Assembly: GCF_056746865.1 (NCBI RefSeq)
Contig: NZ_CM163382.1
DNA: 64,000 bases
Strand: one strand, 5' to 3'
In this document: piece by piece, positions 34,001-37,000 of the stretch
Position numbering within the stretch: position 1 is the first letter of the stretch
Layout: every line of letters begins with the position of its first letter
Made by a program: the position numbers

Positions 34001-37000
34001 GCTGGTGGCATTAGAGAGGATATCGGGCGCGCGATTGGGAATATAACCCAGTTCATCAAGAGCGGCGGCAATCTTGCCGCGTAGAGCGACGGAAACCTGC
34101 TCCGGGTTGCGTAAAAAACGGCTGACCGTCATTTTGGTCACGCCTACACGGTCAGCCACATCCTGAAGTACGGGTCTTTTCTTTTTCATCGTCCTGAAGG
34201 TACAAAAGAGATAGATTCTCTTAGTTTAACACGGACGCATCAGAACCTTCCCGGGGAAAACAGTGCTTGTTTACAATTATTAGATATACACTAAATCAAT
34301 TGCATCGCATTGTGCTAACGACGCGGCAAAACCCCGGAAGCGTACATCAGCACGCGACCGGAGCGAGTGAGGAAGCCTGCAAAAAGGCAGGCTTCAAAGA
34401 TGCCGTTGAGTTTTAAACCGGCGGCAGATCGAACAGTAACACTTCGCTGTCGCTATCCGCATGAATGGAGATTGCCTGCTCATCCCAGATTGCCAGACCA
34501 TCGCTGGTCGAGGCTTTCACGCCGTTAATGGTGACATTGCCTTTCACCACCTGAATCCAGACGCGGCGTTCAGCGGCAATCTGATGCACCGACTGCTCAT
34601 CTTTTACCAGCGCCCAGCGGTACAGTTCCATATCCTGATACACTTTCAGCGAACCATCACGCGCATCCGGCGAGAGCACCAGCTGTTTGCCCTGTACGGC
34701 ATCGAAGCGACGCTGTTCATAACGCGGCGTAATACCGTTTTCTTCAGGCATGATCCAGATTTGATACAGATGCAGACGCTCGGTGCTGCTTGGGTTGTAC
34801 TCTGAGTGACGAATACCCGTACCCGCACTCATAATCTGGAACTCACCCGCCGGAACCTGCTCTTTATTGCCCATGCTGTCCTGATGCTCAACAGTACCTT
34901 CCAGCACGTAGGTCAAAATTTCCATATCTTTATGCGGGTGAGTGCCGAAGCCCTGCCCTGCTTCAATCACGTCGTCGTTAATCACGCGCAGCGCGGAGAA
35001 GCCCATAAAGTTCGGATCGTAATAGTTGGCAAAAGAGAAAGTATGCCAGGAGTCCAGCCAGCCATGATTTGCATGACCACGTTCATTTGCTTTGCGTAAG
35101 TAGATCATTTTTATTCGCCCCCTGAATGATTTCGATGGGCTTAGTGTGGACCCGATCCGCCTGGGATGATAGAGGGTGAAAATTGACCCCTCTGTTCAAA
35201 AAAATTGAACTATTCGAGGGGCCATCAAACTTACTTCGCGAGAGTCACTGTGGAGGGAGAGGCTTGCTCAAATCCTCGTTCAAGGATTTCCAGATTGGTA
35301 AGAACTTCAGATTCCTTGACGTAATTTGGCGCACCGTTGGTGATGGTTTGATACAACGCATCATAAACGCGCCCGTAATCGCCCATCTCCGGCTTCATCT
35401 CTTCTCTGACCGTCACACCCTCGTCATTGACATACTCCAGCACACCGACCGAATCATCCGCTGCGAATCCCGGTTCGCCCGGCATAATATTGGCCTTGAG
35501 GCTGGTTTCCTGCTGGTCGATACCGTATTTAATAAACGAACCTTTCTTACCGTGAACGATAAATTTCGGATAATCGATTTTCACCAGATGGCTGGTTTTG
35601 ACGATGGCTTTCAGGTCGCCATAAAACAGCTGCGCTTCAAAGGTGTCGTCAGGATTGGCTTTATTACGCAGGCTGCGGATGTCATAAGCGACGTGATCCG
35701 GGCGACCGAACAGAGAAATAATCTGGTCCATCGTATGCACACCAAGACCATAGAACGCGCCATCCTGCGGCAGCCCAGGTTTGGTTTCTGCCACCGGGCG
35801 GTAATAGTCAAAATGGCTTTCCACTTCGACAATCTCTCCAAGCTTGCCGCTTTCAATCGCTTTTTTCGCTGTCAGGAAGCAGGAATCAAAGCGACGATTC
35901 TGATACGGCGTGACGGTCAGCCCTTTGCTTTTCGCCAACGCAAACAGCTCCTTCGCCTGGGCAAGCGTCGGGGTGAACGGTTTTTCGACCAGCACATTTT
36001 TCCCGGCTTCCAGCGCGCGCTTCGCGTACTCGAAGTGGCTGTCTGCATGGGTGCAGACCACAACCAGCTTAACATCGGGATCGTTTAGTACTTCGTCGAG
36101 ATCGCTGGTGAAATGGATATGAGAGTAAATGGGGGCCTGTTCTTCCGGCTTCGCATGGCGGCGAAAAATATGCGCGACATGCCAGCTATCCTTGCGGTTA
36201 AGTACATACGGCAGATGGTAACGGGTGGTGCTTTTGCCGAAGCCAATAAAGGCGCAGTTAATGACCATGATTTCGTCCTTTTTAAGGGGGTTATTTACAC
36301 CTTAGCGCAAAGCGGACGTGGTTCCTACTGGAGTGCGCATAACGAACACAAGCACTTCCCGTGGATAAATTGAAAACGAAAGATCAAAAAAAAAGCCAGC
36401 ACCCGGCTGGCTAAGTAATACTGGAAGCAATGTGAGCAATGTCGTGCTTTCAGGTTCTCCGCGAGGGTCTTCCTGATCGCGAGACAATAATAATCATTCT
36501 CATTCGCACTTGTCCAACACTTTTTGCAAAAAAAATGCATTTGACTCGCATTTGAAAGTCAATGATGTTGAAAGGGACATTTACCCCAAAGAGGACAAAG
36601 GAATGAGTGAGATAGTGATACGCCATGCTGAAACGCGGGACTACGAGGCCATCAGGCAGATTCACGCCCAGCCGGAGGTGTATTGCAACACGCTACAGGT
36701 GCCTCATCCCTCCGATCATATGTGGCAGGAGCGACTCGCCGATCGCCCCGGCATCAAGCAGTTAGTCGCCTGTATTGATGGAATCGTCGTAGGCCATCTC
36801 ACCATTGACGTGCAACAACGCCCACGCCGCAGTCATGTTGCCGATTTTGGTATCTGTGTCGACTCCCGTTGGAAGAATCGCGGTGTCGCCAGCGCCCTGA
36901 TGCGAGAGATGATTGAAATGTGCGACAACTGGTTGCGGGTAGATCGTATTGAGCTAACGGTGTTCGTCGATAACGCGCCAGCAATTAAGGTCTATAAAAA

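What the first reader, a model, noticed from the sequence alone, without database searches (positions are those of the whole stretch)
36391..36506. RyhB small RNA and its Fur box, invisible to the ORF track
The 90-nt RyhB sequence is present intact on the minus strand between yhhX and yhhY, with a Fur-box-like AT palindrome directly over its promoter. It lies only ~600 bp from the start of the toxin/immunity islet and shares a ~120-bp divergent intergenic region with yhhY.
Basis: partly seen in the sequence, partly recalled or inferred. Interest (0 to 1): 0.25.

Follow-up and report, generated by a model that had tools for sequence, protein, structure and literature searches.

The report
RyhB iron-stress small RNA gene
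This interval is the well-known Escherichia coli ryhB gene, a Fur-repressed small RNA that shuts down non-essential iron-using proteins when iron is scarce. It is identical to the textbook K-12 copy, so it is real but ordinary.

Summary
The observation and the interpretation are both correct, and the finding is already known.

- **Rfam test.** The RyhB model (RF00057) hits 36387-36451 on the minus strand at 83.1 bits.
- **Identity to K-12.** The sRNA, its sigma-70 promoter and its Fur box are base-for-base identical to K-12 MG1655 ryhB (b4451). The sRNA runs from +1 at 36480 to 36391 (90 nt), or to 36386 (the 95-nt K-12 annotation).
- **Fur box.** The box at 36483-36501 matches the 19-bp consensus at 16 of 19 positions. 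It is the only site that good in the 64-kb window (0 of 100 shuffles). It covers the -10 hexamer.
- **Flanking genes.** They are yhhX (35231-36268, minus) and yhhY (36603-37091, plus). There are 122 bp between RyhB +1 and the yhhY ATG. The YhhZ/YrhA islet begins about 590 bp beyond the Fur box.
- **Conservation.** The element is in 5424 of 5426 complete E. coli genomes. Its 28-nt core occurs in at least 120 loci of other Gammaproteobacteria, nearly always with an upstream Fur box and a downstream terminator.
- **Not shown here.** Expression, iron response and Hfq dependence were not tested and rest on the literature.

Interest is very low.

The parts
36386..36480 (-). ryhB small RNA gene. +1 is the G at 36480. 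The 90-nt form ends at 36391 and the 95-nt form of the K-12 annotation ends at 36386.
   Evidence: Rfam RF00057 scores 83.1 bits against a gathering score of 55, E 3.6e-14. The sequence is 100% identical to K-12 b4451.
36420..36447 (-). Conserved 28-nt core (RyhB nt 34-61, GCACGACAUUGCUCACAUUGCUUCCAGU). It contains the target-pairing seed; nt 38-46 (GACAUUGCU) are perfectly complementary to -4..+5 of the sodB start codon.
   Evidence: The exact core occurs in at least 120 loci of Enterobacterales, Aeromonas and Vibrionaceae. The 9-nt Watson-Crick block to K-12 sodB was found.
36386..36412 (-). Rho-independent terminator: a 7-bp G+C-rich stem with a 5-nt loop (36412-36394), followed by a U9 tract (36394-36386; its first U at 36394 closes the stem). 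By inference this is the Hfq-binding 3' end.
   Evidence: Terminator scan and MFE fold. The hairpin is kept in 112 of 114 related copies, with compensatory stem changes (GCCAGC/GCUGGC, GCCCGC/GCGGGC, GCCGGC/GCCGGC, GCCCAC/GUGGGC, GGCCAG/CUGGCC).
36487..36516 (-). Sigma-70 promoter of ryhB: -35 TGGACA (36516-36511), 18-nt spacer, -10 TATTAT (36492-36487).
   Evidence: It is the only promoter-like site in 36200-36700 and matches 10 of 12 positions. The -10 ends 7 nt upstream of the K-12-annotated 5' end.
36483..36501 (.). Fur box (GACAATAATAATCATTCTC on the + strand), spanning -3 to -21 and overlapping the -10 hexamer. The wider Fur hexamer cluster reaches about 36507.
   Evidence: It matches the 19-bp consensus at 16 of 19 positions and is unique in the window, with 0 of 100 shuffles matching. 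The identical K-12 site is 25.2 bits and was gel-shifted by Fur (PMC2189734). A Fur-box-like site lies upstream of 116 of 119 related copies, against 18 of 585 control windows.
36481..36602 (.). 122-bp divergent intergenic region shared by ryhB and yhhY.
   Evidence: The same divergent arrangement occurs at 47 of 110 evaluable related copies, with the yhhY start 142-212 nt from the core (median 155; the window is 155).
35231..36268 (-). yhhX (oxidoreductase), the downstream neighbour on the same strand as ryhB.
   Evidence: NCBIfam NF007574 equivalog, 779 bits; RefSeq annotation.
36603..37091 (+). yhhY (GNAT N-acetyltransferase), the divergent neighbour.
   Evidence: NCBIfam NF007527 equivalog, 372 bits; RefSeq annotation.

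Best explanation
The interval is the orthologous, intact ryhB gene of an Escherichia coli chromosome.

**How it works, by step**

1. When iron is plentiful, Fe2+-Fur dimers bind the Fur box that overlaps the -10 hexamer and block RNA polymerase. The site and its position are shown here. Fur binding to the identical K-12 sequence is shown in the literature.
2. When iron is scarce, Fur leaves. A 90-95-nt RNA is then transcribed from +1 at 36480 to the intrinsic terminator at 36412-36386. This step is inferred here from the promoter, the terminator and identity to K-12.
3. The RNA is bound by Hfq through its U-rich 3' end and internal AU-rich stretch. It uses the conserved single-stranded core (nt ~34-61) to pair with the translation-initiation regions of mRNAs for non-essential iron proteins (sodB, sdhCDAB, acnB, fumA, bfr, the suf/isc genes and others). 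The 9-nt complementarity to sodB is shown here.
4. Pairing blocks translation and triggers RNase E-dependent decay, so iron is spared for essential uses. A few targets (shiA, cirA) are activated instead. This step comes from the literature.
For: - **Rfam.** The RyhB model scores 83.1 bits against a gathering score of 55, over the full length.
- **Identity to K-12.** There are 0 differences from K-12 b4451 across the sRNA, promoter and Fur box, while the flanking intergenic DNA differs at 4 positions.
- **Promoter and terminator.** Both sit exactly where the K-12 ends require them.
- **Fur box.** It matches at 16 of 19 positions and is unique in 64 kb.
- **Literature on the K-12 site.** A cluster of Fur sites lies directly in front of ryhB. 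The strongest is 25.2 bits, and an oligo carrying it was gel-shifted by 150 nM Fur. ryhB is stated to lie between yhhX and yhhY (PMC2189734).
- **Synteny.** yhhX and yhhY are confirmed as neighbours.
- **Presence in E. coli.** The element is in 5424 of 5426 complete genomes. Over RyhB plus promoter, 5366 are at least 99% identical. Over a 401-bp query that includes the flanks, only 125 are. This indicates stronger constraint on the element than on its surroundings.
- **Family signature across species.** The exact core is found in at least 120 loci. A Fur-box-like site lies upstream in 116 of 119 copies, against 18 of 585 control windows. A terminator hairpin with compensatory substitutions is present in 112 of 114.
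- **Target pairing.** RyhB nt 38-46 are perfectly complementary to the sodB start-codon region.
- **Function.** The iron-sparing role and target set are from PMC4666370.
Against: - Nothing in the sequence argues against this explanation.
- **Limits of the evidence.** No expression, iron-response or Hfq data exist for this particular strain.
- The thermodynamic fold of the 90-nt RNA is not more stable than shuffled controls (z = -0.67). This is usual for Hfq-dependent sRNAs with an open seed, and it means folding energy alone would not have identified the gene.
- A full-length RNAduplex energy against sodB is only modestly better than shuffles (30 of 500 shuffles were as good). The pairing argument therefore rests on the 9-nt seed block and on published mutational work, not on that energy.
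Confidence: 0.98

Rival explanations
1. The interval is protein-coding. One of the minus-strand ORFs that cross it (36302-36487, 61 aa, TTG start; or 36325-36540, 71 aa, ATG start) would be the real gene, and the RNA similarity would be incidental.
For: Both ORFs exist mechanically.
Against: - Both start codons (36487 and 36540) lie upstream of the transcription start at 36480. The 71-aa ORF even starts upstream of the -35 hexamer, so neither can be translated from the RyhB transcript.
- Close relatives differ by single-base indels between the core and the terminator (ATTACTTAGCC against ATTACTTTAGCC) and in the terminator loop. These would shift any reading frame.
- Conservation follows an RNA pattern: an invariant 28-nt core and compensatory stem changes.
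- Rfam E-value is 3.6e-14.
Confidence: 0.01
2. The Fur box mainly or additionally controls the divergent gene yhhY (or read-through into yhhX), as it was assigned before RyhB was discovered. The shared 122-bp region would then be a bidirectional iron-regulated control region.
For: - The Fur site was first assigned to yhhX/yhhY by a Fur-titration cloning screen (Vassinova and Kozyrev, as cited in PMC2189734).
- yhhY appears in a RegulonDB-derived Fur regulon list (PMC2710865).
- The divergent yhhY-ryhB pair and its spacing are conserved at 47 of 110 evaluable copies in other genera.
Against: - The Fur box sits at -3 to -21 of the ryhB promoter and 102 bp or more from the yhhY ATG.
- No sigma-70-like yhhY promoter was found overlapping it; the scan found none on the + strand.
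- Chen et al. explicitly reassign the site to ryhB.
- A strong terminator separates ryhB from yhhX.
- This rival does not contradict the RyhB assignment. It would only add a second regulated gene.
Confidence: 0.2
3. The copy is a decayed or silent relic: present as sequence but not functional in this strain.
For: None. It is considered only because no expression data exist for this strain.
Against: - There are 0 differences from the experimentally characterised K-12 gene across the promoter, Fur box, sRNA and terminator.
- 5366 of 5424 genomes are at least 99% identical over the element.
Confidence: 0.01

Closest known systems
Escherichia coli K-12 RyhB (SraI; b4451; Rfam RF00057)
   Same: The sequence is identical over the whole sRNA, promoter, Fur box and terminator. 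The strand, the neighbours (yhhX and yhhY) and the 5' and 3' ends are the same.
   Different: Nothing differs within the element. Outside it, the window has one extra T in the T-run between the ryhB -35 hexamer and yhhY. Downstream of the terminator it has one T/C change, one extra A and one C/A change. The islet beyond yhhY carries IS2 after the yhhZ-like gene, whereas K-12 has IS1E inside yrhA.
RyhB paralogues and orthologues in other Gammaproteobacteria (Salmonella RfrA/RfrB, Yersinia RyhB1/RyhB2, Klebsiella, Vibrio and Aeromonas RyhB)
   Same: They share the 28-nt core, the upstream Fur box and the intrinsic terminator. The RyhB1-type copies share the divergent yhhY neighbour (PMC4211561).
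   Different: Their 5' stem-loop sequences diverge and several genera carry two copies. The Rfam scan of this window found a single RyhB hit, with the E. coli-type 5' end. Vibrionaceae copies are longer downstream of the core.
Functional analogues: PrrF1/2 (Pseudomonas), FsrA (Bacillus), IsrR (Staphylococcus)
   Same: They follow the same logic: a Fur-repressed sRNA that represses iron-protein mRNAs to spare iron. This rests on the literature (PMC4211561; abstracts listed).
   Different: They have no sequence homology to RyhB. The window element is a true RyhB homologue, not merely an analogue.

Membership tests
RyhB (Rfam RF00057) | Scores at or above the family's curated gathering score with the covariance model, over the full length | tested here: met
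   83.1 bits against 55, E 3.6e-14, model positions 1-67 of 67, not truncated.
RyhB (Rfam RF00057) | Conserved single-stranded core or seed (GCACGACAUUGCUCACAUUGCUUCCAGU) that pairs with targets | tested here: met
   The exact core lies at 36447-36420 on the minus strand. The same 28-mer occurs in at least 120 loci of other species. It has 9-nt perfect complementarity to the sodB start region.
RyhB (Rfam RF00057) | Rho-independent terminator with a U-tract at the 3' end | tested here: met
   7-bp stem with 5 G-C pairs, 5-nt loop and U9. The hairpin is kept with compensatory changes in 112 of 114 relatives.
RyhB (Rfam RF00057) | Fur box overlapping the promoter (transcription repressed by Fe2+-Fur) | tested here: met
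   - At sequence level, the site matches the consensus at 16 of 19 positions, lies at -3 to -21 and is unique in the window.
- Fur binding to the identical K-12 sequence is published (PMC2189734).
- Binding in this strain was not tested.
RyhB (Rfam RF00057) | Orthologous position between yhhX and yhhY in E. coli | tested here: met
   NCBIfam equivalogs for both neighbours and RefSeq annotation.
RyhB (Rfam RF00057) | Accumulates under iron limitation or in a fur mutant as a ~90-nt RNA | not testable with these tools
   This needs a northern blot or RNA-seq. It is inferred from identity to K-12.
RyhB (Rfam RF00057) | Hfq-dependent stability and RNase E-coupled target decay | not testable with these tools
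   Literature only (PMC4666370; PMC4211561).

The most novel reading that the evidence does not exclude
The most novel reading not excluded concerns the neighbour, not RyhB itself. The tightly conserved divergent pairing of ryhB with the GNAT acetyltransferase gene yhhY may reflect a functional coupling. The spacing is 142-212 nt in 47 copies across many genera, with a Fur-site cluster in the shared 122-bp region. In this reading, iron starvation would co-induce YhhY, for example to detoxify aminoacyl-nucleotide warheads of siderophore-linked 'Trojan-horse' antibiotics taken up through iron-starvation receptors. The YhhY substrate link is my recollection and is not verified here: the literature search found nothing. 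Database lists already place yhhY under Fur, but that assignment predates the discovery of RyhB and may simply be a mis-assignment of the ryhB site.
Probability: 0.12. Interest if true: 0.35.

Novelty: already known. Interest (0 to 1): 0.04.

Why it matters
It matters only for annotation. RyhB is the master post-transcriptional regulator of iron sparing in E. coli, and it is absent from ORF-based tracks and from the PGAP annotation of the non-K-12 genomes sampled. Any functional reading of this window should therefore carry it as a feature.

Its perfect conservation also gives a useful landmark. It marks the fixed edge of a segment, yhhY plus the YhhZ/YrhA islet, that is highly polymorphic between strains. 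No open question is advanced by finding it here.

Tried and rejected
- **Folding energy as evidence.** The 90-nt RNA folds no better than shuffles (z -0.67), so I did not use it.
- **Full-length RNAduplex of RyhB against the sodB 5' region.** It gives an unrealistically long duplex and only a modest advantage over shuffles. I kept only the 9-nt perfect block, which matches the published pairing site.
- **Massé and Gottesman 2002 (PMC123697).** I tried to read it for primary details, but it is not held. I relied on PMC2189734, PMC4666370, PMC4211561 and PMC3423075 instead.
- **Literature on YhhY substrates.** Searching 'YhhY', 'acetyltransferase' and 'aminoacyl' returned nothing. The sideromycin idea therefore stays a speculation from memory.
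- **Protein-coding reading of the two overlapping ORFs.** Considered and rejected; see the rival explanations.
- **Second terminator-like site.** The site at 36363-36347 on the minus strand has only 3 G-C pairs and a poor T-tail (TTCGTTAT). I treated it as a chance match, given that the scan expected 0.5 sites by chance. One of the K-12/window differences, an extra A, falls in its loop.
- **A formal count of structure pairs.** I did not run one. Rfam's model already encodes the structure, and the terminator covariation was counted directly.

Full report
**1. Observation**

The + strand of 36386-36520 and its reverse complement were read directly. The minus strand from 36480 down to 36391 is GCGAUCAGGAAGACCCUCGCGGAGAACCUGAAAGCACGACAUUGCUCACAUUGCUUCCAGUAUUACUUAGCCAGCCGGGUGCUGGCUUUU, and the U-tract continues to 36386.

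A gathering-threshold scan of the whole window against Rfam 15 gave two hits. One is RyhB (RF00057) at 36451-36387 on the minus strand: 83.1 bits against a gathering score of 55, E = 3.6e-14, the full model 1-67, not truncated.

**2. Identity and anatomy**

- **Source organism.** Megablast of 36250-36650 against 5,426 complete E. coli genomes matched 5,424 of them, always on the chromosome, under yhhX and yhhY. The window is therefore E. coli chromosomal DNA.
- **K-12 annotation.** The K-12 MG1655 record annotates ncRNA ryhB (b4451) at 3580922-3581016, between yhhX (b3440) and yhhY (b3441).
- **Alignment.** A three-way alignment of the window, K-12 and E. coli 042 over 36270-36610 shows no difference anywhere in the sRNA, its promoter or its Fur box. 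The only K-12/window differences are one extra T in a T-run upstream of the -35 hexamer and three changes downstream of the terminator.
- **Gene ends.** Mapping the K-12 ends through that alignment puts +1 at 36480 and the 3' end at 36386 (95 nt).
- **Promoter.** The scan finds a single sigma-70-like site in 36200-36700: -35 TGGACA (36516-36511), an 18-nt spacer and -10 TATTAT (36492-36487). It matches 10 of 12 positions and ends 7 nt before +1.
- **Terminator.** The same scan finds a stem of 7 pairs (5 G-C) with a 5-nt loop at 36412-36394, followed by the U-tract.

**3. Fur box**

- **In the window.** The 19-bp consensus GATAATGATAATCATTATC matches 36483-36501 with 3 mismatches. This is the only site with 3 or fewer mismatches on either strand of the 64-kb window, and none occurred in 100 dinucleotide-preserving shuffles. 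It spans -3 to -21 and overlaps the -10 hexamer. That is the geometry expected for repression by occlusion.
- **Published evidence for the identical K-12 sequence.**
  - Chen et al. 2007 describe a cluster of Fur sites 'right in front of' ryhB, the strongest at 25.2 bits.
  - The oligo carrying it shifted with 150 nM Fur.
  - They note that the site had earlier been attributed to yhhX/yhhY (PMC2189734).

**4. Surroundings**

- **Neighbours.** yhhX is 35231-36268 on the minus strand (NF007574 equivalog, 779 bits). yhhY is 36603-37091 on the plus strand (NF007527 equivalog, 372 bits).
- **Islet.**
  - an ORF with an Hcp/TssD N-terminal domain, like YhhZ (37327-38439);
  - an IS2 element directly after it (38470-39743);
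  - a YrhA-family protein (39838-40332);
  - a YrhB-sized ORF (40782-41066);
  - then ggt.

E. coli 042 lacks the islet altogether.
- **Overlapping ORFs.** The two mechanical minus-strand ORFs over the interval (61 and 71 aa) start upstream of +1, so they cannot be read from the RyhB transcript. Single-base indels among close relatives would also break them.

**5. Related sequences**

*Within E. coli.* RyhB plus promoter (146 bp) is at least 99% identical in 5,366 of 5,424 genomes. The 401-bp query that includes the flanks is at least 99% identical in only 125. The element is therefore under tighter constraint than its surroundings.

*Across species.* The exact 28-nt core occurs in at least 120 stretches from Enterobacterales, Aeromonas and Vibrionaceae.

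- **Upstream Fur box.** In the 110 nt upstream of the core, 116 of 119 copies have a site within 5 mismatches of the consensus, against 18 of 585 random control windows from the same loci.
- **Downstream terminator.** 112 of 114 copies have a terminal hairpin before a T-run. Stem variants differ by compensatory changes: GCCAGC/GCUGGC, GCCCGC/GCGGGC, GCCGGC/GCCGGC, GCCCAC/GUGGGC and GGCCAG/CUGGCC.
- **Divergent yhhY neighbour.** It is present at 47 of 110 evaluable copies. The yhhY start lies 142-212 nt from the core, with a median of 155; the window is also 155. This fits published statements that Yersinia RyhB1 shares the E. coli context and that Klebsiella ryhB is flanked by yhhY (PMC4211561; PMC3423075).

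**6. Mechanism**

*Shown here:*
- the promoter, Fur-box and terminator geometry;
- the conserved core;
- a 9-nt perfect Watson-Crick block between RyhB nt 38-46 (GACAUUGCU) and positions -4 to +5 of the K-12 sodB start codon.

*Taken from the literature:*
- Under iron limitation RyhB represses many non-essential iron-protein genes. This is the 'iron-sparing' function. It acts through changes in translation initiation and mRNA stability.
- Two targets (shiA, cirA) are activated (PMC4666370).

*Inferred for this strain:* iron-responsive expression and Hfq dependence, from sequence identity with K-12.

*Weak or uninformative lines:*
- Folding energy is not better than shuffles (z = -0.67).
- The full-length duplex energy with sodB is only modestly better than shuffles.

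**7. Comparison, novelty and verdict**

This is not merely like RyhB. It is the E. coli ryhB gene. Every sequence-level defining feature was tested and met. Only the expression-level features could not be tested.

The one loose end is whether the shared Fur-bound spacer also regulates yhhY. A RegulonDB-derived list places yhhY under Fur (PMC2710865). However, the site sits on the ryhB core promoter, no yhhY promoter overlapping it was detected, and Chen et al. reassign the site to ryhB. The conserved divergent pairing keeps a coupling possible, but I rate it unlikely to be more than shared ancestry of the locus.

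Noticed in passing
L123:151-305 (E. coli 23AR0151, NZ_CP195448.1), equivalent to window 36420-36447: One clinical isolate (sputum, New Zealand) carries a 9-nt tandem duplication (ACATTGCTC) inside the RyhB seed. It therefore has three copies of the CAUUGCU motif instead of two. It is the only genome of 5424 below 95% identity over RyhB plus promoter. The effect on target recognition is unknown.
   Followed up: partly
window 36603-37091 (yhhY): yhhY is much more polymorphic than its neighbours. It differs from K-12 at 31 of 489 nt and from E. coli 042 at 84 of 489 nt, and every 042 difference lies from nt 90 onward. By comparison, yhhX differs at 20-29 of 1038 nt and RyhB plus promoter at 0. 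This looks like a recombination boundary inside yhhY, at the edge of the variable islet.
   Followed up: partly
window 37092-41100: The variable islet between yhhY and ggt contains a YhhZ-like ORF with an Hcp/TssD N-terminal domain (37327-38439, 370 aa). The K-12 yhhZ CDS is 1179 nt, so this copy is probably 3'-truncated. IS2 follows directly (38470-39743), then a YrhA-family protein (39838-40332) and a YrhB-sized ORF (40782-41066). K-12 instead has IS1E inside yrhA, and E. coli 042 has no islet at all.
   Followed up: partly
window 11499-11541 (-): This is the second Rfam hit above gathering score: ES036 (CssrF) sRNA, RF02751, 43.6 bits against 37.6, E 1.6e-05, with two non-canonical pairs in the stem.
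   Followed up: no
window 36386-36520; RefSeq records H16-H27: RefSeq/PGAP annotation shows no feature at ryhB in the 12 non-K-12 E. coli genomes sampled ('none'). In E. coli 042 the locus-tag series skips RS19730 at exactly this spot. Only K-12 carries the ncRNA feature.
   Followed up: partly
L003-L122 (other species): Many genera (Yersinia, Photorhabdus, Serratia, Pectobacterium, Pantoea, Brenneria, Pluralibacter, Mixta, Acerihabitans) carry two copies of the exact RyhB core on different contigs. Salinivibrio has two copies in tandem about 300 bp apart (L061, L081).
   Followed up: no
window 36347-36363 (-): A weak terminator-like hairpin (6 pairs, 3 G-C, poor T-tail) lies between the RyhB terminator and the yhhX start. 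It is probably a chance match.
   Followed up: no
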